Positions 7,806 through 33,459 of a stretch of 34,677 nucleotides of DNA are shown in pieces. Source of the DNA: a virus (taxonomy: Duplodnaviria; Caudoviricetes); the IMG/VR virus record IMGVR_UViG_3300017754_002862, positions 1 through 34,677 of that record. One strand, 5' to 3'. Positions within the stretch are counted from its first letter, which is position 1, and each line of letters opens with the position of its first letter. The notes under the pieces were generated by a model. It saw only the letters and a list, made by a program, of their open reading frames with translations. It ran no database searches and was not told the DNA's origin. A program made the position numbers and the translations under genes.

Positions 7806-8073
7806 TGATGTCAACAACCTTCTTAAGCATTGATGCTTGAAGTTGCTTAACCTCAGCTACATAGATGCTGGCGTCATCATCAAACTCTTTACTCATACCA
7901 AGTTGCAGGTCAGTTATGATGGCTTGTACGCACTTGGTTTTAGTTAAGATGCTACCTGTGTGGAAAGCCTCAATCCATACGTCGTAGCTATTGGCTTGCA
8001 TATGCTCATTGCCTGTATGTTTTAGCAGTTCAATCCACTCATCATAGGTTTTTTTGATGGTATCGTCTTTCAT
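7786..8073 (-). CDS. Hypothetical protein (95 aa)
   Basis: ATG at 8073 forms an ATGA overlap with the upstream stop and follows AAAGGGA, so it is preferred to the ORF-track start at 8100. Overlaps the convergent plus-strand gene by 20 bp. Confidence 0.6.
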   Translation of the reverse strand: MKDDTIKKTYDEWIELLKHTGNEHMQANSYDVWIEAFHTGSILTKTKCVQAIITDLQLGMSKEFDDDASIYVAEVKQLQASMLKKVVDIINAQQA

Positions 8074-8774
8074 ATGTCTTTCCCTTTCGTATGAAACCAC
8101 ATTCTTAGGCTGGTCATGCCGCCATCTATCAATACATGATTTGGAAACCGCTGGTACTTATGGTACAGTGGGTGATTAATGAAGTTCTTCATTAGTAGGT
8201 AGGCATCAGCATCAGGCGGAGACATGCCCATTGCACGGTCAGTATCAATACAACGAACTGCAAATGTCTCACCAAACTCTTTTTCTATTGAGTGCACCTG
8301 ATCTCCTAGCAAACCAATAATAGTAATCCTAGGCTTGAACAGTCTATTGCCTTCGTAGGCTGGGTTATGCTTTTGTAAGCCAAAGAAATGCTCCAGTTCC
8401 TGCACATCTTTTAGTTTGCCACGTACTTCATCTGCAATCTTATTAGCCAGATGCGTTGCAATAGCGTTGATGGCATCATCTAATGGGTCAATAGCCTCTA
8501 CCAGAGTAACTTGATGAGTCACAGGGGCCTCAGTTACAGGAGCTGTAGGGGTCTTTATAGGCTTAATGCCTTCTAAGGTTCTAGCCCTTACTTCTTTGGT
8601 GATGTCAACACAGCTTGAAGGAGTGTTTACTGGTCTTTGCCTATGCAAAGGTAGCACCAGCTTTTGTGCAGCCTTAACTGCCTCAAGCAATTTATAGCTT
8701 CTAAAATGCCGTAACTCCACAGCCTGTGTGATTACAGCTTCTCGTTCTTCATGTGTCCAGAAAACTTTTGTCAT
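8070..8774 (-). CDS. Protein with N-terminal helical domain and C-terminal DUF2325-like alpha/beta domain
   Basis: 234 aa. C-terminal ITIIGL...ADAYLLMKNFINH...LIDGGMTSLR pattern resembles DUF2325. Preceded by the repeated leader motif. Confidence 0.5.
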   Translation of the reverse strand: MTKVFWTHEEREAVITQAVELRHFRSYKLLEAVKAAQKLVLPLHRQRPVNTPSSCVDITKEVRARTLEGIKPIKTPTAPVTEAPVTHQVTLVEAIDPLDDAINAIATHLANKIADEVRGKLKDVQELEHFFGLQKHNPAYEGNRLFKPRITIIGLLGDQVHSIEKEFGETFAVRCIDTDRAMGMSPPDADAYLLMKNFINHPLYHKYQRFPNHVLIDGGMTSLRMWFHTKGKDI

Positions 8775-8777
8775 AAA

Positions 8778-8824
8778 TACCTTTCAATAGTCAAAAAAAT
8801 GTGGTTGCCCACGGAAAAATTATA
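8778..8824 (-). promoter_or_regulatory. -10 box TATAAT, GNRA hairpin and leader motif TTGACTATTGAAAGGTA
   Basis: On the minus strand, TATAAT (8819-8824) overlaps the stop of the TS-like gene, then GTGG-GCAA-CCAC (8801-8812), then the motif (8778-8794), 3 nt before the ATG at 8774. No clear -35. Confidence 0.55.
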
Positions 8825-9602
8825 CATTCAAAAGCCACTTTGAGAAGGCAAATTCAGGGTTTACGCTCTTCTCAATCAAGACGTGTGCTTCATACCTACT
8901 GATTCTAGGCGGCGCATCAGCTACAGGCACATGCTCAGCATTGCTAAGAATGCTATTGAACATAGTCATTCTGGATTCATACACATGGAATGAACCGGCA
9001 GAGATTGTTAGTGTCCCCATTTCAACATTAAGCAAAGTAGCCACAATTTCTTGTAGGAATGAGAAGGTAGGCAGGTCGTTTGCCATGCCCCACAAGATGT
9101 CTTGGCTTCTCATGATTGCACGAGCATTAAGCCTACCATTTCGTAGTCTGAATTCTATGGCAATAGTGCAAGGTACGTCTTTGGCTTCAGGGTCCATGTG
9201 GTCAGCACTGGAACCATACATTGGAATGACAGCCCTACGGCTCATAGGATCCTTGGTCAGTATCCGCTGAATAAACTTAATGCCATGTACACCAAACCAG
9301 TAGCTACCATAGTTGCTGTTAAGTTTGCCATTGAGAACTATCTTGCCCCACTGTGCAGCATGCTCAGCAATAGACAGGTCAGTTGGATCAGCATGAATGT
9401 ACCAAGCCATTTCACGCTTGAGGTACTTAACATTGAAGTTACGGCCTACAAAAGAATTGAACCTTACAAAAGGGTTGCAAGTGTAGGATACATTCTCAAG
9501 CTCTAGGCACCTTTCACCATTGGGGCTTGACCACTGGCCTTGGTTTGCAAGAACCTTGTATAGGTCAATCAGTTGCGCTTCATTTTTAATCTTGAGGTCC
9601 AT
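8820..9602 (-). CDS. Thymidylate-synthase-superfamily enzyme, T4 gp42-like dCMP hydroxymethylase (dCMP-modifying)
   Basis: Motifs YLKREMAWY, LNSNYG, SRRAVI, DVPCT (Cys145), MRSQDILWGMAND (Asp176) and AGSFHVY. The Cys-Asp spacing of 31 matches T4 gp42 C148/D179; dUMP enzymes have Asn at this position. Confidence 0.85.
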   Translation of the reverse strand: MDLKIKNEAQLIDLYKVLANQGQWSSPNGERCLELENVSYTCNPFVRFNSFVGRNFNVKYLKREMAWYIHADPTDLSIAEHAAQWGKIVLNGKLNSNYGSYWFGVHGIKFIQRILTKDPMSRRAVIPMYGSSADHMDPEAKDVPCTIAIEFRLRNGRLNARAIMRSQDILWGMANDLPTFSFLQEIVATLLNVEMGTLTISAGSFHVYESRMTMFNSILSNAEHVPVADAPPRISRYEAHVLIEKSVNPEFAFSKWLLNV

Positions 9603-10521
9603 ACTCTAACTCCGTAATGTGGTAAGGTTGATTGGGGTAATTTTGCATGTGGTACAAAGGCGGTGGCAGCTTTTGTGCTTGTACATTGTTGTTTAAAGCC
9701 CATGTGTAGGCATTGTTGCCTAAAGCATAAACACGAGCTGGCTTTAGCTTACGAAGAAACAAAACATCTGTAGGTGTGCCTTGGTAGGATTGCGTGTTGA
9801 TCCAGTAGCATTGGCCCTCAGATATGCCTTCACGTTCTAAAGTGTCAGCCAACATGCGGCTTGGGCCGTCATTGTCTAAGAAGTTAATGAAGGGGACTAT
9901 GGCTGCACCGGCCTTTATGTTAGCTCTAGGGCCCTTATCACAAAGCATTAGGTAATTACCTTCCTTAAAGCAACCGCCACCTTCAGCCTCATTCTGAATG
10001 CTTGCAGCCTTAATCTTTTCTATCAGATCATCTACTTCATCGTATTGGTAGTCATAGTGCACAACCGGCAATGATGTCTGGTACTTTAGCGTTTCATACT
10101 CGTTGTAGACTGCACTAAGCTGTGTAACAGTATCAAGGTATTCCTGATCTTGTCTATCTACAAAAGTATTGACGCATAAAGTAAAGTCAGGCTGGCAATG
10201 CACAACCACACCACCACGAGATAGTGCTACCCTTTCCAGCATACGTTTCCTAGGCATGTCCACGCGGTTGGCGCCTTTGCGATAGACATTGCCATAGATA
10301 GGCTCTGATAGCCAGCAACGATCCATGATGACATGGTCATTGTATGTGAGGGCCTGCGACATAGCACGGAAGTATGTCTTACATAACTCTTCAGCAACTA
10401 GGCCTTTGAAAGGGCCATGCTTAACAATTTGCGTCATGCGGTCTTGTTGGAAATGCTGTCGCAAAGCTTCTGATAAAGTTGTTTTGCCTGCCCCGTCAGG
10501 GCCTTCAAGTATGATGATCAT
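9586..10521 (-). CDS. dNMP (thymidylate-type) kinase fused to a degenerate UDG-superfamily domain
   Basis: N-terminal IILEGPDGAGKTT P-loop and VIMDRCWLSEPIYG motif. The C-terminal ~130 aa follow family-4 UDG motif order (LMLCDKGP, PF, YWIN, KPARVYALGNNA, LPPPLY). Confidence 0.8.
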   Translation of the reverse strand: MIIILEGPDGAGKTTLSEALRQHFQQDRMTQIVKHGPFKGLVAEELCKTYFRAMSQALTYNDHVIMDRCWLSEPIYGNVYRKGANRVDMPRKRMLERVALSRGGVVVHCQPDFTLCVNTFVDRQDQEYLDTVTQLSAVYNEYETLKYQTSLPVVHYDYQYDEVDDLIEKIKAASIQNEAEGGGCFKEGNYLMLCDKGPRANIKAGAAIVPFINFLDNDGPSRMLADTLEREGISEGQCYWINTQSYQGTPTDVLFLRKLKPARVYALGNNAYTWALNNNVQAQKLPPPLYHMQNYPNQPYHITELEYGPQD

Positions 10522-11414
10522 TTAAGAAAGCTTTCTAATTTTTTTAGTGTATCTTGCTTTGTTGCTAACTTTGTTGATAGTGCGATTGCCTGTTCTGCAG
10601 CCATGATGAGTTGCCGTTCATCACTCATGTTTTCAATCTCACGTAATGTGTAACTATATGCAGGACTTATGACTGCAAGTTCCTTGGGGTCACCGCCTAA
10701 GATTGCACCGGCATGTGCGGCATGTAAGTACCTAATGCGCCACCAGCCACAGCCGGCATGCGTGTATGTTGGACACAAGATGCCTTTGTATTCACCGTAT
10801 TCCCAGACAATGTCACTTTCAAGCATGCGCGGTTGGCCTAATGCCTTGCCGCCAATGCTATGTACTGGCCAACTAAGGTTTTGCTTTGTTGCCCATTCAT
10901 GCGCACCAGTTGATAGTGATGCGTTGTACCACTCATTCTTACGACGAGGCCAAGCCATTTGATGGCAGGCAGGCTGCTCATACAAAGGTGATGGATCCCA
11001 TTGCAAAATGGTGTCTACGTCAAGGCCCATCTTCTTGGTGTCACCCCAAGGAAAAAGCGGAGCAATCCACTTATGCTCACGTAAATCACTTGGGTCTATT
11101 ACATCACTCCATGAATCAAAGATTTTTTGGAATGACCAGTCATCAAGGCAAATGTATGCTGTCATGCATTCTTTTAAAACACGTTTAGCGCCTTCAGGAT
11201 GGACTGCGTTTTTATCTAATGGGTAGACATATAGGAAAACTGCGTCATACTTACGTAGATCAGTATCTGCAGTTACAGCTATGTGATCTACATCATGCCC
11301 TTGGCTAAGATATGCTTCACGCATTAGCTCGGGTATGGACACAAACTTAGTTGAGCTTGCTCTTTGAGGATGATTTGTATGCGTTTCGGTAACGCCCGTA
11401 ATGAGAATTTTCAT
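10518..11414 (-). CDS. GT-B-type (beta-glucosyltransferase-like) DNA glycosyltransferase, putative
   Basis: Start moved to ATG 11414 (MKILITG) after the AAAGGA RBS. Rossmann-like start, GHDVD, LDDW and C-terminal GWWRIRYLHAAHAGAILGGD resembling the nucleotide-sugar-binding helix of BGT-like enzymes; operon context with kinase and TS homolog. Confidence 0.6.
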   Translation of the reverse strand: MKILITGVTETHTNHPQRASSTKFVSIPELMREAYLSQGHDVDHIAVTADTDLRKYDAVFLYVYPLDKNAVHPEGAKRVLKECMTAYICLDDWSFQKIFDSWSDVIDPSDLREHKWIAPLFPWGDTKKMGLDVDTILQWDPSPLYEQPACHQMAWPRRKNEWYNASLSTGAHEWATKQNLSWPVHSIGGKALGQPRMLESDIVWEYGEYKGILCPTYTHAGCGWWRIRYLHAAHAGAILGGDPKELAVISPAYSYTLREIENMSDERQLIMAAEQAIALSTKLATKQDTLKKLESFLK

Positions 11415-11420
11415 ATGTAT

Positions 11421-11453
11421 TCCTTTCAATTATCAACAAGCGCCATTGTATCA
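11421..11453 (-). promoter_or_regulatory. Extended -10 promoter (TGaTACAAT) and leader motif for the modification operon
   Basis: Minus strand reads TGATACAAT (11445-11453) inside the helicase 3' end, then TTGATAATTGAAAGGA (11421-11436), then ATG 11414. Confidence 0.5.
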
Positions 11454-14567: not shown

Positions 14568-15329
14568 TCATACATGCCTCATGTGAATCATAGGCGTGCA
14601 GTTGAAAAAGTTCTTATAGACAAAATGTTCTTTGCGATGTACAGCAAACATGTTTTTAGAACGTAAGTATGTGTAAAAGTTTTTCTTGATCTGTCTGTTG
14701 GTGTACACCTTATCATCAAAGCCTACGTACCTATAAAAATGCCCCGGTGCTTTTACAGAAAAACTAGAATTTTCAACCAAGTACTTCATGTCACCAAGCT
14801 GGTCAAACAAAGTATGTGGCTCAATAAAGTGTTCAAAGCATTCAAAGGCAAACACAGCATCTACGGGCACAGGCGTTTCAACATGCTGAATGTTGTTTAC
14901 CCCTATTAGACCTAATACCTCAAACAATGCTTTAGCTCTTTCAATTTGAGCAGGCGCAGTTTGATGATAATAAATTGTTGAGTTAGGAAATGCTTTTGCA
15001 AGCACTACACTAGAACGGCCATCTCCACCATACAAGTCAAGTATAGTTTCAGGCACAATGTTTAAGTCATTAAAAAACTTTAAGGACGTTATCAAGTTGA
15101 TTCGAGTGTAGTACTTAAAGCACACATCAAGATTGTTGATATACTTTGGGTGGTCATACACACTAAAGTTGTAAGCAATGTCTTTAGGGTGCTCGGTTGA
15201 GCCAACGTGATGGTTAGCATACCAAATGTCATTAAGCATGTCATCAACCTCAAGCATTTCTGCTTTAGACTTTGTACACGCTTTTGCGTATGCTGATGAT
15301 TGACTTTTAGCGTCTTTGATGCAAATCAT
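14568..15329 (-). CDS. Class I SAM-dependent methyltransferase (small-molecule/sugar type)
   Basis: ILDLYGGDG SAM-binding motif and VDAVFAFECFEHF motif. No DPPY/NPPY or PC motif of DNA methyltransferases. ATGA-coupled to the polymerase stop. Confidence 0.7.
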   Translation of the reverse strand: MICIKDAKSQSSAYAKACTKSKAEMLEVDDMLNDIWYANHHVGSTEHPKDIAYNFSVYDHPKYINNLDVCFKYYTRINLITSLKFFNDLNIVPETILDLYGGDGRSSVVLAKAFPNSTIYYHQTAPAQIERAKALFEVLGLIGVNNIQHVETPVPVDAVFAFECFEHFIEPHTLFDQLGDMKYLVENSSFSVKAPGHFYRYVGFDDKVYTNRQIKKNFYTYLRSKNMFAVHRKEHFVYKNFFNCTPMIHMRHV

Positions 15330-17200
15330 TTTGTGTCCTGATAGGTGTTGCCAATTTTGTAATCACTAACCATAGGTACATCCATTGCCAAAGCATTGCA
15401 CATAGACCATGTTAGCGTTTCAGCCTCGCGTTCAATGAACTCCTCAGGTGCTGAGATGACCAGTTCATCATGCACACTAAGAAGTAGCCTACTACCTTTA
15501 CGACGACTTTGGTATAGCAGCATGGCAGCCTTTGCCTGATATGCGGCAGAGCCTTGAATCAAAAGGTTGACACCTTTATAGTCAAACTCACGCAATCTAC
15601 CGTTGATAATCTTAGGCGGTTCCATCTTTACCAGACGTCCTCCAAGGGTTTTTATGGGTTGGCCTAATTTATACCTAGTACGCATGGTTGATTGCATCAT
15701 CCTGAGGCCCGGAGCCACCGCAGATGTATATGCATCCATCAACGTTTTGGCCAAAGAATAATCCACCTCCAACATCTCACTAATCTTTTGTGGGCCAGCC
15801 CCATAAAGAATAGCAAAGGATACCCCCTTGGAATAAGTACGTGATACTTCTTGATTGGCAGCCTCTGACATGAGTTTGGCAGCATACGTATGCAAATCTG
15901 CACGTGCATCTTCTTGATACTGCTTCATAAGGTTACCACCTTCAAAGTGTGCAAAGATCCATAGCTCTTGTGCATTGAAGTCGCATGCCACCAGCTTATG
16001 GCCTTCATCAGGAAGAATGAAACTACGTATAAGTGGCAATGGCGCAATGTCTAAGTCTGTTGGAATGAGGATTTCGTTTCTTCCCATTCCTGTGGTTGCT
16101 CCGGCAGCGACAATTTTCGGATAACGGACAGGCGCATTTTGAAAGTTGGGGGTAGAAGAAAGTCTGCCGGTACGTGTGCCGCCACGTTCACCTCGAACAC
16201 TATTCCAGTTGGTGTAGATTCGACCTGTAGATGCAGAAGCTTCAAGCCAGGGCTCAATGAAAGTTGACAAACATGTTGATAAGTTGGCTCTATATCGTAG
16301 GACACCTTTTAACTCCTCATGTGTAATTAGTTCATCCAAGGTTTCTTTGTCAGCCCTAGGCTGACCTTTGTCAGTTGTAGGCCACCCATTTGTTTTGTCC
16401 CAGTAATTGGTGAGATAAATACTATCGACTAACTGTTTATCGCTGTCAATATTTATTTCAGGAGACTTCAATAATGCGCGTACCCAGACACTACATTTCT
16501 CAATATCTACTATTGCTTGCTGCTTGGCTTGTTGCAAACCTTCCCTATCCACACGTACACCTAGACGTGAGTTTTCAAGCAACATGGGCATCAAAGCCAT
16601 CTCACGTTGATAAGCCTCATCTTGTGCAGGCACCACATGCTCGTAAAGATGCGCAAAAAGCAAAGAAGTAAGCCTTACATCAGCTGAAGCATAACGACCT
16701 ACAAGATCCACTGGACCACGACAGATGTATGCACCCCAAGTGGACTTTTTACGATGTGCTTCAGGAACGTTTGCAATAATCCAATCACGCAATTCATCAC
16801 GTTCATCAGGCTTTGCAAGCCCATAGGTAGTTACCAATTCTTTTAACGAAAGAGATTGGACATGTGGGTCATGCAGGAAAGCAAGAATAAGAGTATCATG
16901 TATCCTATAGGGTTCAGGTAAAGGAAGATCAAGATGAGTTTCGGCAACATCAAGATCAAACATAGCGTTATGAAAACAGATTTCACGATCAGATTCATAA
17001 ATCAATTCCAAAATTGTTTTCACAATTGCTTTGGTTGAGTTGTTACCCGTTGTGTGACCAAATGCATGATAGCCATCAGGGTATTCACCTTCAGGGTCAT
17101 AAATGGCCAAGCCAACGGGCACAGGCGGATACTTTGGCCGAGCTTCAATGCCTTCGGTTTCAAAGTCTAAAAAGACTGGTTTTTTCATACGGGGTTTCAT
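15326..17200 (-). CDS. polA: Family A DNA polymerase with 3'-5' exonuclease
   Basis: Exo motifs LDFET, HNAMFD, YASAD; TRTGRLSS; motif A DFNAQEL; motif B RTYSKGVSFAILYG (Phe at the 762-equivalent); motif C VHDEL. Confidence 0.95.
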   Translation of the reverse strand: MKPRMKKPVFLDFETEGIEARPKYPPVPVGLAIYDPEGEYPDGYHAFGHTTGNNSTKAIVKTILELIYESDREICFHNAMFDLDVAETHLDLPLPEPYRIHDTLILAFLHDPHVQSLSLKELVTTYGLAKPDERDELRDWIIANVPEAHRKKSTWGAYICRGPVDLVGRYASADVRLTSLLFAHLYEHVVPAQDEAYQREMALMPMLLENSRLGVRVDREGLQQAKQQAIVDIEKCSVWVRALLKSPEINIDSDKQLVDSIYLTNYWDKTNGWPTTDKGQPRADKETLDELITHEELKGVLRYRANLSTCLSTFIEPWLEASASTGRIYTNWNSVRGERGGTRTGRLSSTPNFQNAPVRYPKIVAAGATTGMGRNEILIPTDLDIAPLPLIRSFILPDEGHKLVACDFNAQELWIFAHFEGGNLMKQYQEDARADLHTYAAKLMSEAANQEVSRTYSKGVSFAILYGAGPQKISEMLEVDYSLAKTLMDAYTSAVAPGLRMMQSTMRTRYKLGQPIKTLGGRLVKMEPPKIINGRLREFDYKGVNLLIQGSAAYQAKAAMLLYQSRRKGSRLLLSVHDELVISAPEEFIEREAETLTWSMCNALAMDVPMVSDYKIGNTYQDTK

Positions 17201-18339: not shown

Positions 18340-18705
18340 TTACTTGCGACGAACGGTAAGTTCCCAGACATCCGATGTGGTTGTCCCGGGTATGGCTTCA
18401 CCTGCATCCCACCGCTCACGGAAGGCAGTTGAAGAAAGCCGCTTATGCAGCAATTCGAATTGGCCACTTTCTGCCACGTACTTGTAAAACGTGTTCCAAT
18501 CATCTATGGCAGGGTGACGTGTAAGTTTCATTGTGCAAGAAGCCTTGTCGTTGGCTGCTTGGCTAATGCCGGCATGGCTCATAAGATCCATAATGTCTTT
18601 TTCAAGCTCGGCCAATTGCTTGGTGCATTGCTTAACCTCTTCACTAAGGTCTTCACGTTTAGCCTTGGTAGCTACAAACTTGTCAATGAGTTCATTGATA
18701 TTCAT
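18340..18705 (-). CDS. Conserved phage replication-module protein
   Basis: N-terminal coiled coil, then IDDWNTFYKYV...LLHKRLS...IPG; AAGGAG RBS. Confidence 0.55.
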   Translation of the reverse strand: MNINELIDKFVATKAKREDLSEEVKQCTKQLAELEKDIMDLMSHAGISQAANDKASCTMKLTRHPAIDDWNTFYKYVAESGQFELLHKRLSSTAFRERWDAGEAIPGTTTSDVWELTVRRK

Positions 18706-19127
18706 TTTGAGGACTCCTTAGCTAATGCATCTTTTCTTGTTGCTTGAATAACTTGTGTAAGTGCAGGCTCAGGCGGCACCCAACCTACTGGCTTAATGAC
18801 GTCGTATTGAGAGCCACGAGTAGAACGCATGAGCTCATTAGCAGGTACCTTGCGCATGTTGGCCTTGTGCACAACATCAAAAAGCTTATCAAAAGGTAGC
18901 CCCATTGCATGTGCAACACCAAGTGCAACGTAGACCAAGTCAACGATTGCATCGGCCGCGTCAACCAAGCTTTCCTCTTCACAAGCTTTTAGGTACTCAC
19001 TCAATTCCTCCATGATGAAGCGAGCAAAGTAGCTTGCCTCAGCGGGTGAAAGGAACTGTGGATAGTTGGTGATTGGCAAATTCATTTTTTGTCTGAAGAT
19101 GCCAACTTTTTCAAAGTTAGTCGCCAT
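18702..19127 (-). CDS. MazG-like/PRA-PH-type dimeric NTP pyrophosphohydrolase
   Basis: IMEELSEY...DAADAIVDLVYV...VHKANMRK...IKPVGWVPP (EExxE...D..D metal motif). Confidence 0.85.
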   Translation of the reverse strand: MATNFEKVGIFRQKMNLPITNYPQFLSPAEASYFARFIMEELSEYLKACEEESLVDAADAIVDLVYVALGVAHAMGLPFDKLFDVVHKANMRKVPANELMRSTRGSQYDVIKPVGWVPPEPALTQVIQATRKDALAKESSK

Positions 19128-27018: not shown

Positions 27019-30000
27019 ATGGCCGCAATCTACGATGCTTTAGGCAATGTCATTGGAGACGATGGGCAACCATCTGTCGACCAAATGCAGTATGAGTTGG
27101 CTAGGAACGGCAAGCCTAGCCCATTGGACACTGCAGTTAACGCAATCAAGAATGTAGCTGTCAACAACAATCCCTTAATGCTTAGAAAGCAAGGGCTTGA
27201 TTTAGCAGGCGACATACCTCGAGTTGTGGCAAGCGGCATGGCGCCATTTATTGCAGGCATTACGCAGCCTGTAGTAGGCGCCTATGACTACGCATCTAAG
27301 ATGCCGGGCGTGCTGTATCGTGAGAAAGTGCTTGGTGATCCGCAATCAATGCAAGAAGCTGCCACAATTCGTGAAGGGCTTCCTCAGTTTGGTGCGCCCG
27401 GTGCACGGTATAACCCAGAGCCTATGAACAGGCGTGTAGAAGCAATTGGTCAAGCCGTAGCGCCGCAAACACCACAAGGCCAAGCTGCACTTGAAGCCGC
27501 AGGCCAAGTATTTCAAGCAGCCAAGTTACCTACAATAGGGCCAGGGTCCGGAGTGCCTGGGACTTCACGTGTATCACCAAGACCCTTCATTACGCCTAAC
27601 GACTTACGGGTTGTAGGTGCCGAAGCAACTCGTGTTGGTAAACAGATTGGTGAGATACCTACAGACTTTGTGAATGCGCAATCAGGCTTTCAACGCATAG
27701 ATCCTGTGACTAACCAACCTGTGATGGGCGCAAGAATACAAGGCGGCGTGGATAGACTTGGTGACATCATGGCGCAAAGACGCATGCAAGGTCTTAGCCC
27801 AATCCCGGGTTTGCCTGACGTATTGCAACCACAAACCAGTATGTATGCTGTGCGGCCTTCGGAAGGTCCGAACTACGTGGTAAACCCCAAGTTGCCTGAG
27901 TCAGCATTGGCACAACGGCCTGAGTTAGATACTGCAGGTATTTACACAGCAGTCAACGCGCTTAGGCCCATTAAAAATCCTACAATCAACAATGTCAATG
28001 GCGCATATTATGCTGCAAACATTGTTGACAACCCTACTGTAGATCAGGCCTACACTGCTTACTATGACAACGTGCTAAGAACTTTATTCCCAGACACACG
28101 AGACATGCTTGAAGCAAATGTGGCGTATCAACTTACATATCCACGTGAAGAAGAGCGTAGTAAAGTCAATCGCACAATTCTGAATAACTTCATTAATGAG
28201 TTTAATCAGACTGCTGAAGCTACTGCGCAATTGCCTACTATGGAGCAATTTGCCGAGAACGTAAAAGCAGCAGACAAATGGCTTGACAATACATTCACAA
28301 AGCAGTTGGTTAAGAATGTAGGCACAACCAATGACCCATTGCTTAAACAAGCAGAGCAAGGTATCACATTCAAAGATCCTATGCAGCTTGTTGCTGAGTA
28401 CAGCGTGCCTAGTGCAAAGCTGCAAAATGCACGTCAAGCGGCTGGCTTTAATCCGTCAGGCGAATACTTTGATGCCATGAACGCGGCAAAGCAAGAGCTT
28501 GATCAAGTAACTAATGACGAGTATTTGCCGCTTGAGCGTCAACGTATTCAAGCACAACAAGATGCTGCGCGGCTTGGCATTCCAGTTACAGAATACGAGC
28601 CTTATAGAAATCTTACTGCACCTCGTGATCGTGCATCTGCAAAAGTTGAGAAGCTGGAAGAAGCATATAAGAAGCTGCAAATTGCAAATGCATATGCAAA
28701 CGCAGTTGATTCAATGGTTGCCACCAAGACTGCCAAACAAGCATGGGACAAGATACCTAGAACTGAGAGACAGTTTTATCCACAGCTCCGTGACCTTGCT
28801 GCAAGTGCGCCTGATACACCTATTTACGACGTGTTTGCAAAGCATAGCGCATCAGGCTACCAAGAGATGGGCGAAGACATTGTTAAGCAAATCGTAAAGG
28901 GCAAAATCAAGGCCAAAGATTTGCACAAGACGCCGCTTGATGTGATGGTTAAAAAGAAAGCTGAAGCACGTGATGCAGTGGAAAAAGCAGCACAAACAGA
29001 AATCAAGAAACGTGTTCAAGCTGTGTCTACGAAATTGATAGAAGACTTATCACTTGTGCCTGAGGTGTTTAGGTTTAGCAATGCCAGCGTGCTTGAAGTC
29101 TCCAATAAGTATGATGTAGATACCATTCGTCGAATGCTTAGTGCAGATACAGATGTGCTTGACTTATGCGCTGCAAACTCAGGTAAACCGCCTAAGTCTG
29201 CTAAAAGCATCTATCATCCAGACAAAGGGGATAAGCAGGACTATTATCCTAGCGCTGACCCCATTACAGGCAAGCGGCTTAGACCTACTGTTAATGACAC
29301 CATATACGTTAAAGACACGGCAAAAGGCACTGAGTTTAATGCTTCAATTCGTGATAATGTAACTGGTTTGCCAGTTGGGCTGTTGCAGTTCTCAAGCTTA
29401 GGTCCCAATCGTGCAGGTGTGACTGAGTATAGCATGGGCTTTGTATCAGGCTTTAGAAACAGTGCGCCTATTGAGCCACAGTATAGAAACGTGGTACGTG
29501 ATTACTTGAATCTACGTGCTGACATCATTAAGAATTCAAACAGCGAAAAGCTTGCTACCAATGGCATATACGACACGTCAAAGCCTACGCAACAGCTCTT
29601 AAACAACTTAAACTTAAGCAGAAAGCAATGGGACGACGTAACCAAAGTTTATACAGGCGCAGTTCCACGTTTTATTACAGCTGAAGATGGCCGTAACATT
29701 CTACAAGCAGTTAGAGATCAGCAAAGAGCAGTTGCACCTGTAACACAAACGCCGAGTGAAGTTGGTGACATGCAAACGCAGCGTACAGCGTTGCTTGCAG
29801 AGCAACGTCAACTACAAAATGATCAACTTCGCGGTAATCAAGACTATGATGTTACACAGCGGCTTGATGACATTGCTTCACAACTTCAAGACATTGACCA
29901 ACGTTTAGCAAGGTCAACACAACAGCAGCAACCGCAAACATTCCAATATGGAAATCTATATGAAATAGCACGTGGCGGTGCTGGTATTGAGCCTATGAGA

Positions 30001-33000
30001 CGTTTAGAGCCTGAAGTTACGTCAACCAGTGCTAGTGCATTCCAAGGCTTATTCCCACAGCATATTCGTAGAAATGATGAAGTTCGTAGAAGTCAAATAC
30101 TATCGCCTGAACAAGTTGCAGAAATTATTGAAGAGCTTGAAGTAAGCGCACGACAAATTGATGACTTGGATGAGGGCGCTGTATTAGAAGATTTCAACAT
30201 CACTTCACAAGATCAGCAAGATCGTGTTGTTGACCAGCTTACTAATGCTGCACAAAGACTCCGTGATGCAGCAAATATTCACATTGGTGATGATGGTCGT
30301 GATGTTGTGCCGCAACAGCAGCAACCACAAAGTGTAGAGCAAAGACTATCTGACTTGCGTCAATTGATTGATGTGCCAATGCATCGTGAGAATGATCCGG
30401 CAGTTGAAACTGAATTGAATAATTACGCAGCGTATTTGCAAGAACGAATTAATGTGCAAACACGAGCAGGGTATTTGCCTGAGCATACTGCCGATTACAT
30501 ACGCACTGACATCAACCAGTTACGCAATGATACATTTAACAACCCCAATGAGTATACTGTAGGCTTTACAGCAAGGCAGGTTGATGATTTTGTAGGGGCA
30601 TTAAGAACTACCATTGACACGATTGGCCAATGGCTAGAAGAGCAACGTCGCCAACAGGCGCCTGAGCCTGATGTTCAAGAGCAACGTCTAACTACAAACC
30701 AGCAAATCACCAATGCATATCGCAATGAGTTTTCGTTGCGTACTGAAGAGCCTGATGTTGATGATCACTTAATTGAGTTTCAAGACAACATTGACGCTGA
30801 AGTAAATCGCTTGTTTGGTGAAGGCCGTACAAGTAATGACATTGCAATGCATGTGGCGAATATGATTTCAGAGCGCATACGTGAGTTGGTTGAAGACTAC
30901 ACTGCTGGGGAAACTATAAATAGATATGCACTTACACGGGAAGAATCAAACATTGCTCGTGGGCGTTTAAATACAACATTTACTGCTGTGCTGAATATTG
31001 TGGATACAAATGAAGGGCTTGATGAGCCTGAGCAACTTACAGAATTGCCTAATAACTTCTTTGAGCCTGATGAAACGCATCCAGCAAATCTACCAGCAAC
31101 TACACCTGCACAAGCATTGCCACCGCCTGTACAGGCTCGAGCACAGCGTAACCCTGACGCAAATCTTGATAGCTTTATCAATCGCGTTCGTAGAGAAGAA
31201 GGCGCACAAATTGCTGATCGAGTTGAGACAGTTGCATATCGTGTTGCTGAAAATGTAACCAATAACAGAGTAAATCAGCTTGATGCGGATCAGGCTGAAG
31301 AATTTGCACGCGGTTTACGTGTTGCTGCAGAATTGGAAGATTCTGAATTAGTTGAGATTGCATTGCGTGGGCTTGCAGATATGGTGACAACGTTAGTTGC
31401 ACAAGAGCCTGAAGCAGCATTTGTGCAACCTGCAGCACCACAAGGTGAAGTTACAACTCAGGGCGTCTTAAATGCATTTAGAACAGCATTTACGCCAAAT
31501 ACGGGCAGTGCTGCTGCTGATGCATACTTATCGCAATATGGTGATACCTTAATCAATCGCATGGTTGAATTAAACAACGTAGTAATTACGCCTGCAGAAG
31601 TTGCAACAGGTATATCAGACGAAATACGAGAGCATTTTCGTTTATTAGTGCGGTTAGCCGATCAACCGAATGGTGCGCAAGCAACCGGTCTTACAAATGC
31701 TGAAAACATGATGGTGCGTCATCGTCTTGAAACAGCGCTTGGCAACATACGATTTAGCACAATGCCGCCTGAAGGTAATCAACCTGCAATACCACCACCA
31801 GTTCAAGAGCGGTTACCTGCACCTGTGGTTGCACCGCAACGTGCAAACTTGCCTGCTGAAGTACAGCAAAACATTAACAATCGAAATCGGCAAATTACAG
31901 GCGCATATGGAAGTGCTCTTGACCCAAACACTGCTTTTAACAATACAAATGATGCATTAAGTGAGTTTATAGACTTACTAGATGGTATGGCTACTAATTT
32001 ATTTGGTAATGGTATTCCTGCAAATGAGATTGCAGAGAACTTACAAGCACGTATTAGATCTGAGATTATAGTGCTTAGCGACCCTAATCGTGTAGCTGAT
32101 CGTGGGCTTAACGCCGCTGAAGCCGACATACTTCGTGGTCGCTTAGATGACGCATACGGCAATTTAGCAAGAGTGCATGATCAACTAATTGAACCCGCAC
32201 AACAACAAGCATTTACGCCACAAGATGCGTTGGATATGGCGCGTGAGTTGCTTGAGCAAGAACGTGTAAACCAAGGTCAGTTAAACGAGCCCGGTGTACA
32301 AGGTTCAATCTACGCCTTGCGTAATGGCGTGTTTGATGATGCGCGTATTCGTCGACTGCCTGAGCAGCTTAGACAACCATTTGCAGAATCTGTGTCTAAT
32401 GCGTTAGAAACATTGCTTGCACAAGAAGCACCGCAACGCATGCAGGCAATGCAAAATCTTACTGCTGATACTGCAGTTGCGCGTCAAGCAATTCACAATG
32501 CAATAAGAAACATAGAAAACGATTATGGTGAAGATGTTGCAAATCGTGCGTTTGACATTATTGAAAATATTGCAGAGCATTTAGACCCTGGCGATCAGCT
32601 TACTGCGTTTGTGATGAACATACGGCGTAGAATGCAAGATGTAAGACAAGATGTGTATGAAGCGTTGGACCATATTGCAGATGAGCTTGCGTCTGTAGGT
32701 CGTGAAGCGCCGCAAACACAACCACGTGCTCAAGAAGTAGATCAACTATCTGTTACTGCGCAAATGCCTTTAACTCCAGATCGTGCAAATGGCGATCCAC
32801 AAGTTAATGCAATGTTGGCAGAAGTGCAAGAAGGCCTTGCTCGTCAGATTGAAGATTTGCGACTTGAAGCTAGAACCCCAGAAGATATTGCAAGTATTAT
32901 TTCTACTAGACTATCAGAGCACGTCATAAACGCAGAACGCGTGCACTTAGAAATGGGCACTCTTACTGCTGCGCAATTGATTGAATATGCTAGTAAGATT

Positions 33001-33459
33001 AGAGAAGCAATTGCAGCTATTCGTCAGTTCATGCCTAATGAAAACGCACTACCACAGTATACGTTTAACGACTTGTTTAATCCAGTTGCTGATAACGTGT
33101 TTGGTATTGCAGGTAGAGCAGAGACTCTTACTGCTCGTGATCGTGAGTTATACACAATGCTTAGTGATGTTATAGACAACGCAATTGAAGAGGGTACGCC
33201 TTTGCCTGACCCAATGGATACGGAAGCATTTGCACAAATTATTTTAGATGACGAGGTTGGTGGTGAACTTACTGATCTTACAGATGCTGAGCGTCGTAGA
33301 TTGGCTGCCATTGTTAGAAGATACGGCGTTGATGCTACGCTTCCGCCTGAAGGGCGTAAAGATGGTGGTCGAATTCGTAAGCACAAAAAAGGTGGTACAG
33401 TACGCACTATTCCTAGCGTTGAACAAATGCAATACGAACTTATGATGCGGAGAAAATAA
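27019..33459 (+). CDS. Giant (2146 aa) multidomain protein, probably a virion-packaged polyvalent-type protein
   Basis: Uninterrupted ORF with AAGGA RBS; degenerate PcfJ-like domain near 29134-29511; repeated helical modules; PSV(D/E)QMQYEL at both ends. Confidence 0.7.
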   Translation: MAAIYDALGNVIGDDGQPSVDQMQYELARNGKPSPLDTAVNAIKNVAVNNNPLMLRKQGLDLAGDIPRVVASGMAPFIAGITQPVVGAYDYASKMPGVLYREKVLGDPQSMQEAATIREGLPQFGAPGARYNPEPMNRRVEAIGQAVAPQTPQGQAALEAAGQVFQAAKLPTIGPGSGVPGTSRVSPRPFITPNDLRVVGAEATRVGKQIGEIPTDFVNAQSGFQRIDPVTNQPVMGARIQGGVDRLGDIMAQRRMQGLSPIPGLPDVLQPQTSMYAVRPSEGPNYVVNPKLPESALAQRPELDTAGIYTAVNALRPIKNPTINNVNGAYYAANIVDNPTVDQAYTAYYDNVLRTLFPDTRDMLEANVAYQLTYPREEERSKVNRTILNNFINEFNQTAEATAQLPTMEQFAENVKAADKWLDNTFTKQLVKNVGTTNDPLLKQAEQGITFKDPMQLVAEYSVPSAKLQNARQAAGFNPSGEYFDAMNAAKQELDQVTNDEYLPLERQRIQAQQDAARLGIPVTEYEPYRNLTAPRDRASAKVEKLEEAYKKLQIANAYANAVDSMVATKTAKQAWDKIPRTERQFYPQLRDLAASAPDTPIYDVFAKHSASGYQEMGEDIVKQIVKGKIKAKDLHKTPLDVMVKKKAEARDAVEKAAQTEIKKRVQAVSTKLIEDLSLVPEVFRFSNASVLEVSNKYDVDTIRRMLSADTDVLDLCAANSGKPPKSAKSIYHPDKGDKQDYYPSADPITGKRLRPTVNDTIYVKDTAKGTEFNASIRDNVTGLPVGLLQFSSLGPNRAGVTEYSMGFVSGFRNSAPIEPQYRNVVRDYLNLRADIIKNSNSEKLATNGIYDTSKPTQQLLNNLNLSRKQWDDVTKVYTGAVPRFITAEDGRNILQAVRDQQRAVAPVTQTPSEVGDMQTQRTALLAEQRQLQNDQLRGNQDYDVTQRLDDIASQLQDIDQRLARSTQQQQPQTFQYGNLYEIARGGAGIEPMRRLEPEVTSTSASAFQGLFPQHIRRNDEVRRSQILSPEQVAEIIEELEVSARQIDDLDEGAVLEDFNITSQDQQDRVVDQLTNAAQRLRDAANIHIGDDGRDVVPQQQQPQSVEQRLSDLRQLIDVPMHRENDPAVETELNNYAAYLQERINVQTRAGYLPEHTADYIRTDINQLRNDTFNNPNEYTVGFTARQVDDFVGALRTTIDTIGQWLEEQRRQQAPEPDVQEQRLTTNQQITNAYRNEFSLRTEEPDVDDHLIEFQDNIDAEVNRLFGEGRTSNDIAMHVANMISERIRELVEDYTAGETINRYALTREESNIARGRLNTTFTAVLNIVDTNEGLDEPEQLTELPNNFFEPDETHPANLPATTPAQALPPPVQARAQRNPDANLDSFINRVRREEGAQIADRVETVAYRVAENVTNNRVNQLDADQAEEFARGLRVAAELEDSELVEIALRGLADMVTTLVAQEPEAAFVQPAAPQGEVTTQGVLNAFRTAFTPNTGSAAADAYLSQYGDTLINRMVELNNVVITPAEVATGISDEIREHFRLLVRLADQPNGAQATGLTNAENMMVRHRLETALGNIRFSTMPPEGNQPAIPPPVQERLPAPVVAPQRANLPAEVQQNINNRNRQITGAYGSALDPNTAFNNTNDALSEFIDLLDGMATNLFGNGIPANEIAENLQARIRSEIIVLSDPNRVADRGLNAAEADILRGRLDDAYGNLARVHDQLIEPAQQQAFTPQDALDMARELLEQERVNQGQLNEPGVQGSIYALRNGVFDDARIRRLPEQLRQPFAESVSNALETLLAQEAPQRMQAMQNLTADTAVARQAIHNAIRNIENDYGEDVANRAFDIIENIAEHLDPGDQLTAFVMNIRRRMQDVRQDVYEALDHIADELASVGREAPQTQPRAQEVDQLSVTAQMPLTPDRANGDPQVNAMLAEVQEGLARQIEDLRLEARTPEDIASIISTRLSEHVINAERVHLEMGTLTAAQLIEYASKIREAIAAIRQFMPNENALPQYTFNDLFNPVADNVFGIAGRAETLTARDRELYTMLSDVIDNAIEEGTPLPDPMDTEAFAQIILDDEVGGELTDLTDAERRRLAAIVRRYGVDATLPPEGRKDGGRIRKHKKGGTVRTIPSVEQMQYELMMRRK

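What the first reader, a model, noticed from the sequence alone, without database searches (positions are those of the whole stretch)
8820..11414. Three-gene cytosine hypermodification operon: glycosyltransferase, dNMP kinase and dCMP-specific TS homolog
Seen: three overlapping genes behind their own extended -10 and leader motif. The TS homolog has NSNYG, Cys145 and Asp176. Established: Asp at this position (T4 gp42 D179, versus Asn177 in E. coli ThyA) selects dCMP, and T4 makes glucosyl-hmC using gp42, kinase gp1, dCTPase gp56 and glucosyltransferases. Inference: this small PolA podophage replaces C with a 5-substituted C (hydroxymethyl, hydroxy or methyl) and glycosylates it with a divergent GT. 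No sugar-biosynthesis genes are in the window, so the donor is probably a host nucleotide sugar and the final base is unknown. Similar TS/kinase/GT trios exist in other phages, so the product chemistry is the likely novelty.
Basis: partly seen in the sequence, partly recalled or inferred. Interest (0 to 1): 0.9.

Follow-up and report, generated by a model that had tools for sequence, protein, structure and literature searches.

The report
Phage sugar-hydroxymethylcytosine operon, kinase-UDG fusion
An uncultured phage carries three overlapping genes that likely replace cytosine in its DNA with 5-hydroxymethylcytosine and would then attach a host-made sugar of unknown identity, a likely small-phage version of phage T4's DNA camouflage built from unstudied proteins, one of which is a nucleotide-kinase-like domain fused to an altered uracil-DNA-glycosylase-like domain.

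Summary
Observation confirmed. Three overlapping minus-strand genes (glycosyltransferase 11414-10518, kinase 10521-9586, thymidylate-synthase homolog 9602-8820) follow a conserved extended -10; the order recurs in 73 of 80 related phage loci (the other 7 end early). The synthase keeps D142, C145, D168 and D176 (E. coli ThyA 143, 146, 169, 177) in all 68 complete relatives: the published signature of a dCMP hydroxymethylase, not of a methylase or 5-hydroxylase. The transferase folds as GT-B, closest to T4 beta-glucosyltransferase (Z 18.6), but is a separate family without a Pfam match. The close clade has no mutase (0 of 19 genomes), so the sugar is open; galactofuranose about 25%. This scan noted the same operon in four other genomes. 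Verdict: new variant of the T4 glycosyl-hmC pathway; no chemistry shown; interest 0.45.

The parts
11445..11453 (-). Extended -10 promoter-like element TGATACAAT inside the 3' end of the SNF2 helicase gene
   Evidence: relaxed pattern near the SNF2 stop in 77 of 79 relatives vs about 10% background; function inferred
11422..11429 (-). TTGAAAGG, probable ribosome-binding site, recurring before other minus-strand genes
10518..11414 (-). GT-B glycosyltransferase, 298 aa, T4-BGT-like fold, unnamed family; invariant G7, D92, W162, R226, R228, Q275
   Evidence: (Z 18.6, rmsd 3.7, 281 aligned to 1nzd); no Pfam hit
10006..10521 (-). N-terminal P-loop nucleoside-monophosphate kinase domain (YorR/thymidylate-kinase-like), predicted hm-dCMP kinase
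   Evidence: Z 14.9 to 2axp and 1g3u
9586..10005 (-). C-terminal domain of the same protein, derived from family-4 uracil-DNA glycosylases; pocket Phe211 and Asn242 kept, motif-2 His replaced by Pro
8820..9602 (-). Thymidylate-synthase homolog with dCMP-hydroxymethylase signature (D142, C145, D168, D176)
   Evidence: signature from PMC13326640
18702..19127 (-).
   Evidence: PF01503 E 9.6e-16; homologs beside the GT in 17 of 45 distant-locus rows; substrate inferred
15326..17200 (-). Family A DNA polymerase, would incorporate hm-dCTP
   Evidence: PF00476 E 1.5e-54; role inferred

Best explanation
This operon likely makes glycosylated 5-hydroxymethylcytosine DNA: the synthase is predicted to convert dCMP to hydroxymethyl-dCMP, the kinase domain would phosphorylate it, the MazG-like enzyme would remove dCTP, the phage polymerase would incorporate the base, and the BGT-like transferase would add one host-made nucleotide sugar to the DNA after replication. 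Shown: genes, residues, folds, synteny, absence of a phage mutase. Inferred: every enzymatic step. Step odds: hm-dCMP 0.88; GT acts on hmC 0.85; on DNA rather than nucleotide 0.75-0.8. Sugar: glucose about 0.35, galactofuranose about 0.25-0.3, other about 0.35. D92 is the likely catalytic base (inverting, like BGT D100). The fused UDG-like domain most likely binds a uracil-type pyrimidine with little or altered glycosylase activity (about 0.5). The purpose would be protection from host restriction and CRISPR nucleases.
For: TS: best solved-structure hits MilA (E 7.6e-16) and T4 gp42 (2.6e-11), ahead of ThyA. D142, C145, D168, D176 in 68 of 68 complete close relatives. Lee 2026: N177D selects dCMP, an acidic residue at 143 goes with non-methyl products, D169N marks 5-hydroxylases; my two controls from 5hoC-type clusters read RSQN (RL38J1 gp216, Rgz1 gp33). 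The ML tree puts the clade with Xp15/MD-2021a (90/92) and T4-gp42-type enzymes (91/90), apart from the two RSQN enzymes (100/99). GT: pLDDT 90.8 model; top Foldseek and VIA hits are T4 BGT, then SenB and AGT; D92, R226, R228 invariant in 113 of 113 family members. Linkage: GT-kinase-TS order in 73 of 80 loci. In distant GT loci, TS in 29 of 45 rows, and all 28 readable motifs have Asp at both 169 and 177. GT fused to a dUTPase-like domain in P0199. AXL3, with the same kinase-UDG fusion and TS signature but no GT in the stretch fetched, resists 35 of 37 restriction enzymes, all with G/C in their sites (PMC7504290, passages).
Against: No member of this GT family or TS clade has been assayed in anything I could read. 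Tree supports for the TS placement are under the starred threshold and branches are long. Q167 is shared with the RSQN hydroxylases. GT identity to BGT is only 12%, and the next hits (SenB, Z 17.7) act on small molecules, so the fold does not fix the acceptor. The D92/D100 match rests on position and invariance, not on a residue-level superposition. One GT-family phage (C48C1) gave no PF00303 match. Lee 2026 could not reconstitute the first glycosylation on 5hoC DNA for the analogous trio, leaving a nucleotide-level step open.
Confidence: 0.6

Rival explanations
1. Pre-replicative glycosylation: the GT adds the sugar to hm-dCMP, the co-translated kinase phosphorylates the glycosylated nucleotide and the polymerase incorporates it.
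For: GT, kinase and TS are translationally coupled among replication genes. The kinase's best hit (YorR, 3kb2/2axp) is also the Foldseek hit of the kinase in the DLP3 arabinosylation trio, where the level of first glycosylation is unresolved. The GT is about 50 aa shorter than BGT.
Against: The nearest structure is a DNA-acting enzyme. The genome has no second dNMP kinase detected in the window, unlike RB69, DLP3 and RL38J1, so this kinase is needed for hm-dCMP itself. The same kinase fusion occurs without a nearby GT in AXL3 and PW916.
Confidence: 0.15
2. The synthase is a flavin-dependent dCMP 5-hydroxylase and the product is glycosyl-5-hydroxycytosine, as in RB69, DLP3 and RL38J1.
For: RSQD shares Gln with the RSQN hydroxylases; a GT-family member lies in the arabinose cluster of Rgz1, whose TS is RSQN.
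Against: D169 is retained in 68 of 68, whereas D169N marked all tested hydroxylases. The tree separates the clade from them. The GT profile does not detect RL38J1 gp215 (E 0.24-1.7).
Confidence: 0.07
3. The phage makes plain hmC DNA and the GT acts on something else (virion protein, host surface, free metabolite).
For: GT-B folds are common in non-DNA glycosylation. UDP-galactopyranose mutases also serve surface polysaccharides (established knowledge). TS and kinase-UDG occur without GT in AXL3-like phages.
Against: Coupling to the kinase in all close relatives long enough to show it; linkage to Asp/Asp/Asp TS, MazG and dCMP deaminase in distant lineages; fusion to a dUTPase-like domain; BGT as top structure.
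Confidence: 0.08
4. The synthase is an ordinary dTMP synthase or a dCMP methylase.
For: Pfam and PHROGs label it thymidylate synthase.
Against: Asp at 177 and Asp at 143; a methyl group gives a GT no acceptor.
Confidence: 0.04

Closest known systems
Phage T4 glucosyl-5hmC pathway (gp42, gp1, gp56, alpha- and beta-glucosyltransferase)
   Same: TS homolog with NSNYG, Asp143/Asp169/Asp177 equivalents; a dNMP kinase; an all-alpha NTP pyrophosphatase; a GT with the BGT fold.
   Different: About 55-kb PolA phage, one three-gene operon; kinase of the YorR/TMK type fused to a UDG-like domain; GT only 12% identical to BGT with no PF09198/PF11440 match; no dCMP deaminase in 5 of 5 genomes searched; sugar unknown.
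Glycosyl-5-hydroxycytosine pathways of RB69, DLP3, HY126 and RL38J1 (PMC13326640)
   Same: Adjacent TS, GT-B and TMK-like kinase trio; furanose donors are used there.
   Different: Those synthases are D169N; this one keeps Asp. The GT shows no profile similarity to RL38J1 gp215. No arabinose or mutase genes here.
GT/UDP-galactopyranose mutase pairs of Aeromonas phage Aes508, Erwinia phage FBB1, phage C48C1, Actinomycetia phage DSL-LC01 (annotation only)
   Same: Same GT family (profile E 4e-55 to 2e-107); Aes508, FBB1 and DSL-LC01 have Asp/Asp/Asp synthases.
   Different: They encode the mutase next to the GT; this clade does not (0 of 19). About 23-26% identity. No chemistry found for any of them.
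Stenotrophomonas phage AXL3 / Pseudoxanthomonas phage PW916 module
   Same: Kinase-UDG fusion (30-33% identity, full length) overlapping an Asp/Asp/Asp TS, with MazG.
   Different: Methyltransferase and dCMP deaminase, no GT in the fetched stretch; their UDG-like domain keeps HPQY.
Xanthomonas phage Xp15 / Acinetobacter phage MD-2021a TS plus carbamoyltransferase
   Same: Closest TS among named phages with context examined (37-39%).
   Different: Decorating enzyme is a NodU-family carbamoyltransferase, not a GT.

Membership tests
dCMP hydroxymethylase (T4 gp42 / MilA type) | Catalytic Cys plus Asp at ThyA-177 | tested here: met
   C145, D176; 68 of 68 relatives
dCMP hydroxymethylase (T4 gp42 / MilA type) | Acidic residue at ThyA-143 and Asp kept at ThyA-169 | tested here: met
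   D142, D168; 68 of 68; criterion
dCMP hydroxymethylase (T4 gp42 / MilA type) | Forms hm-dCMP from dCMP and methylene-THF | not testable with these tools
   needs assay
5-hydroxy-dCMP synthase (RB69 gp48 type) | D169N | tested here: not met
   RSQD here vs RSQN in controls
Canonical ThyA | Asn177 | tested here: not met
   Asp176
GT-B superfamily | Two Rossmann domains | tested here: met
T4 BGT / AGT families (PF09198, PF11440) | Sequence-profile match | tested here: not met
   No Pfam hit at E 0.05 for the GT nor for these two families among family members scanned; family profile finds no GT in PDB sequences
T4 BGT / AGT families (PF09198, PF11440) | UDP-glucose donor, hmC-DNA acceptor | not testable with these tools
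   needs assay
Furanosyl (Galf/Araf) transferase to modified cytosine | Linked furanose-donor gene | tested here: inconclusive
   Absent here and in 19 close genomes; present in 5 of 7 annotated and 7 of 45 distant metagenomic rows; donor could come from the host
UDG superfamily (PF03167), family-4-like | Profile homology | tested here: met
   Transitive: profile of 15 distant domains hits this domain at E 8.7e-10, best of 200 shuffles E 6.6; 13 of 16 distant domains hit PF03167, 5 over the cut-off; joint profile hits 1ui0 at E 1.2e-6; ESM features 0.91. No direct Pfam or PDB hit
UDG superfamily (PF03167), family-4-like | Motif-2 His (HPxY) and motif-1 GE | tested here: not met
   PPPL and CD(K/R)GP in 40 of 40 close sequences
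UDG superfamily (PF03167), family-4-like | Fold match of the isolated domain | tested here: inconclusive
   Only the full protein was modelled; kinase hits filled the lists
NMP kinase (TMK/YorR-like) | P-loop kinase fold with Walker A and DR motif | tested here: met

The most novel reading that the evidence does not exclude
The transferase founds an unnamed family of BGT-fold furanosyltransferases, and this widespread small-phage clade hangs host-made galactofuranose on hydroxymethylcytosine, a DNA base for which my searches found no chemical report, while its kinase-fused UDG-derived domain has been repurposed to screen out deaminated modified cytosine.
Probability: 0.22. Interest if true: 0.72.

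Novelty: new variant of a known kind. Interest (0 to 1): 0.45.

Why it matters
It is a three-gene, 2.6-kb candidate hypermodification cassette that can be tested in one E. coli expression experiment. It would give a first activity for a large unannotated GT family (769 representatives at 50% clustering) and for a kinase-UDG fusion spread across unrelated phages. A furanose on hmC would extend known DNA chemistry and bear on which modification-dependent defences such phages escape. If the sugar is glucose, it is T4's chemistry reached with different proteins.

Tried and rejected
Pfam on the GT and on family members: nothing informative. GT family profile vs PDB sequences: nothing. RL38J1 gp215 as GT ortholog: rejected. 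C-terminal domain vs PDB sequences alone or with a 10-row alignment: nothing; fold searches of the full fusion returned only kinases, which does not test the C-domain. Phage-encoded mutase: 0 of 25 records, 0 of 8 at least 90% complete, control rang in 4 of 14. Sugar-pathway genes elsewhere in one complete relative: none among 20 of its 34 listed ORFs of 120 aa or more outside the operon region that I scanned. BGT/AGT searches in five annotated phages rang nowhere, controls included, so they are uninformative. Host search: GTDB contigs gave only 2 distant hits (26%, 35%); host unknown. GT family tree (FastTree): the window's subfamily is well supported (1.0) but its link to the mutase-associated members is weak (0.87, about 3 substitutions per site), so I do not infer the donor from it. 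The window's methyltransferase (14568-15329) is not treated as part of the pathway: present in 3 of 80 loci. Literature searches that found no description of this operon, the fusion or Galf-hmC. The library lacks most subscription papers. He et al., Mahler et al. 2025 and Iyer et al. 2013 were not read; bioRxiv supplements (Pyle contig tables) were not seen and may list these contigs. No complex prediction was run.
Full report
Context. The window is the whole held record, a linear virus contig estimated 51% complete. The minus strand carries a replication block (DUF932, MazG-like, PolA, PD-(D/E)xK nuclease, VRR-NUC, SNF2), the plus strand primase, terminase and structural genes. Near-complete relatives are about 54-55 kb. 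Podovirus morphology was not tested; the host is unknown.

Observation. The three ORFs, their overlaps and the residues are as stated. The extended -10 is conserved at the SNF2 end in 77 of 79 relatives against about 10% background. A scan with the GT alignment found 530 relatives in IMG/VR and kept the best 80; 73 of 80 show GT, kinase, TS in this order and the other 7 end inside or before the kinase. 75 of 80 have a further small gene (about 70-95 aa, NPKR motif, no significant Pfam hit) between SNF2 and GT; it is absent here and in the three 96%-identical loci.

The synthase. Best solved-structure hits are MilA and T4 gp42. Lee et al. 2026 (PMC13326640; I read the abstract, introduction, result sections 24-28, the discussion and searched one supplement) give the residue code: Asp at ThyA-177 selects dCMP, an acidic residue at 143 goes with a non-methyl product, and D169N marks flavin-dependent 5-hydroxylases. 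Here D142, C145, D168 and D176 are invariant in 68 of 68 complete close relatives. RL38J1 gp216 and Rgz1 gp33 read RSQN. A 23-row ML tree groups the clade with Xp15/MD-2021a (90/92) and T4-gp42-type enzymes (91/90), away from the RSQN pair, with long branches and sub-threshold support. Against: Q167 is shared with the hydroxylases. Reading: hydroxymethylase, about 0.88.

The transferase. No Pfam family; one unannotated PHROG. The AlphaFold model (pLDDT 90.8) is GT-B; Foldseek ranks T4 BGT and AGT first, and VIA gives BGT Z 18.6, rmsd 3.7, 281 aligned, 12% identity, with SenB close behind at 17.7. The family has 769 representatives at E<=1e-3; G7, D92, W162, R226, R228, Q275 are invariant in a 113-row alignment drawn from the best 150. 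D92 follows the fourth strand; I infer it is the counterpart of BGT D100, named catalytic in the Pyle preprint (10.1101/2023.12.21.572611, passages). That paper also reports GT-B plus ThyS contigs as common, so the general kind is known. Of the long hits, 2 are fused to a methyltransferase and 1 to a dUTPase-like domain (30 proteins scanned).

Which sugar. I examined the context of 7 annotated family members. A UDP-galactopyranose mutase is adjacent in 4 (Aes508, DSL-LC01, FBB1, C48C1), one lies inside an arabinose cluster (Rgz1), and 2 show neither (Mareelih in the 21 kb fetched; ctIqW946). All are confirmed members by profile. That Gordonia hosts make UDP-Galf is recalled knowledge. In distant IMG/VR loci the mutase follows the GT in 7 of 45 rows (40 contigs; 5 rows are duplicates), all in one search's DSL-like set; GTs about 80% identical to DSL-LC01's occur both with (L163-L167) and without (L174, L175) it, so the mutase looks accessory. 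Against: none of 19 close genomes, 5 of them at least 97% complete, encodes it, nor any of 72 close-locus rows; most distant rows lack it; the family tree does not tie this subfamily firmly to the mutase-linked members. UDP-glucose is the default host donor. Galactofuranose is therefore a lead (0.25-0.3), not the call.

The kinase fusion. Residues 1-172 are a YorR/TMK-like kinase. Residues about 176-305 are as conserved as the kinase and always fused in the close hits. They have no direct database match, but ESM features point to PF03167 clusters (0.90-0.91, family on 18-36% of members); 13 of 16 distant homologous domains hit PF03167; a profile of 15 of them, built without this clade, finds the window's domain at E 8.7e-10 against 6.6 for the best shuffle; and the joint profile hits family-4 UDGs. 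The Phe and Asn that align with the family-4 enzymes are invariant (their role as uracil-pocket residues is recalled), but GE and HPxY are replaced by CD(K/R)GP and PPPL in 40 of 40; distant homologs keep HPxY. I read this as a pyrimidine-binding module with lost or altered glycosylase activity; removal of deaminated hmC is the alternative. AXL3 has the fusion and the same TS signature, and its DNA resists 35 of 37 enzymes, all with G/C in their sites (PMC7504290, passages); its authors read gp28 as an ordinary thymidylate synthase. This supports cytosine modification by such modules but says nothing about the GT.

Other pathway parts. The MazG-like gene at 18702-19127 is the probable dCTPase; homologs lie beside the GT in 17 of 45 distant rows. 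No dCMP deaminase in 5 of 5 genomes of this clade (control 12 of 14), although 33 of 45 distant rows have one.

Prior notice. The scan recorded this operon in four other genomes, two notes naming the fusion, and Galf-hmC candidates in at least nine genomes. My reading with the UDG and Galf points was filed before I saw them; they are AI notes and not support. Other papers seen: PMC13390438, PMC9599517 and PMC13216743 (passages), none describing this operon in the passages returned. Searches found no description of the fusion or of Galf-hmC; subscription papers and bioRxiv supplements were not visible.

Verdict. A real, conserved operon that works like the T4 glycosyl-hmC pathway. The synthase meets the sequence tests for a dCMP hydroxymethylase; the transferase is not a member of the BGT/AGT sequence families. 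New variant of a known kind; interest 0.45; the sugar and the UDG-like domain are the open, testable points.

Noticed in passing
window 14568-15329 (-): Class I methyltransferase-like ORF (weak Pfam hits, E 4e-4) coupled to the PolA stop; present in only 3 of 80 related loci, so a recent insertion.
   Followed up: partly
L008:9786-10004 and 74 other loci: Small conserved gene (about 70-95 aa, NPKR...R..LY..G.TVA.Y) between SNF2 and GT, under the same promoter; lost in this genome; no family match.
   Followed up: partly
L087:6602-9744 (AXL3), L088 (PW916): Methyltransferase, MazG, kinase-UDG and Asp/Asp/Asp TS with G/C-site restriction resistance: a candidate different hmC derivative in a cultured phage whose TS is annotated as ordinary. 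Methyltransferase domains are also fused to the GT in P0207 and P0226.
   Followed up: partly
L001:6895-9077 (Aes508), L092:4937-7062 (FBB1): Cultured T4-like phages with gp42-type synthase and a mutase/GT pair: ready candidates for galactofuranosyl-hmC by LC-MS.
   Followed up: partly
L093:5992-7059 (Morganella phage Rgz1 gp40): Same GT family inserted in an arabinosyl-5hoC cluster, a candidate additional arabinosyltransferase.
   Followed up: partly
L108:4992-8047 (Lactobacillus phage ATCCB): TS, annotated beta-glucosyltransferase and mutase in a row; that GT is not in this family.
   Followed up: partly
window 27019-33459 (+): 2146-aa ORF after the terminase region with no Pfam or PHROG match.
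   Followed up: no
window 8070-8774 (-): 234-aa ORF following the TS in many relatives at 30-51% identity, no family match, own TTGAAAGG site.
   Followed up: no
L113:1529-4347: Sister lineage (GT 38% identical) with the same GT-kinase/UDG-TS order and RSQD; its UDG-like domain has also lost HPxY.
   Followed up: partly
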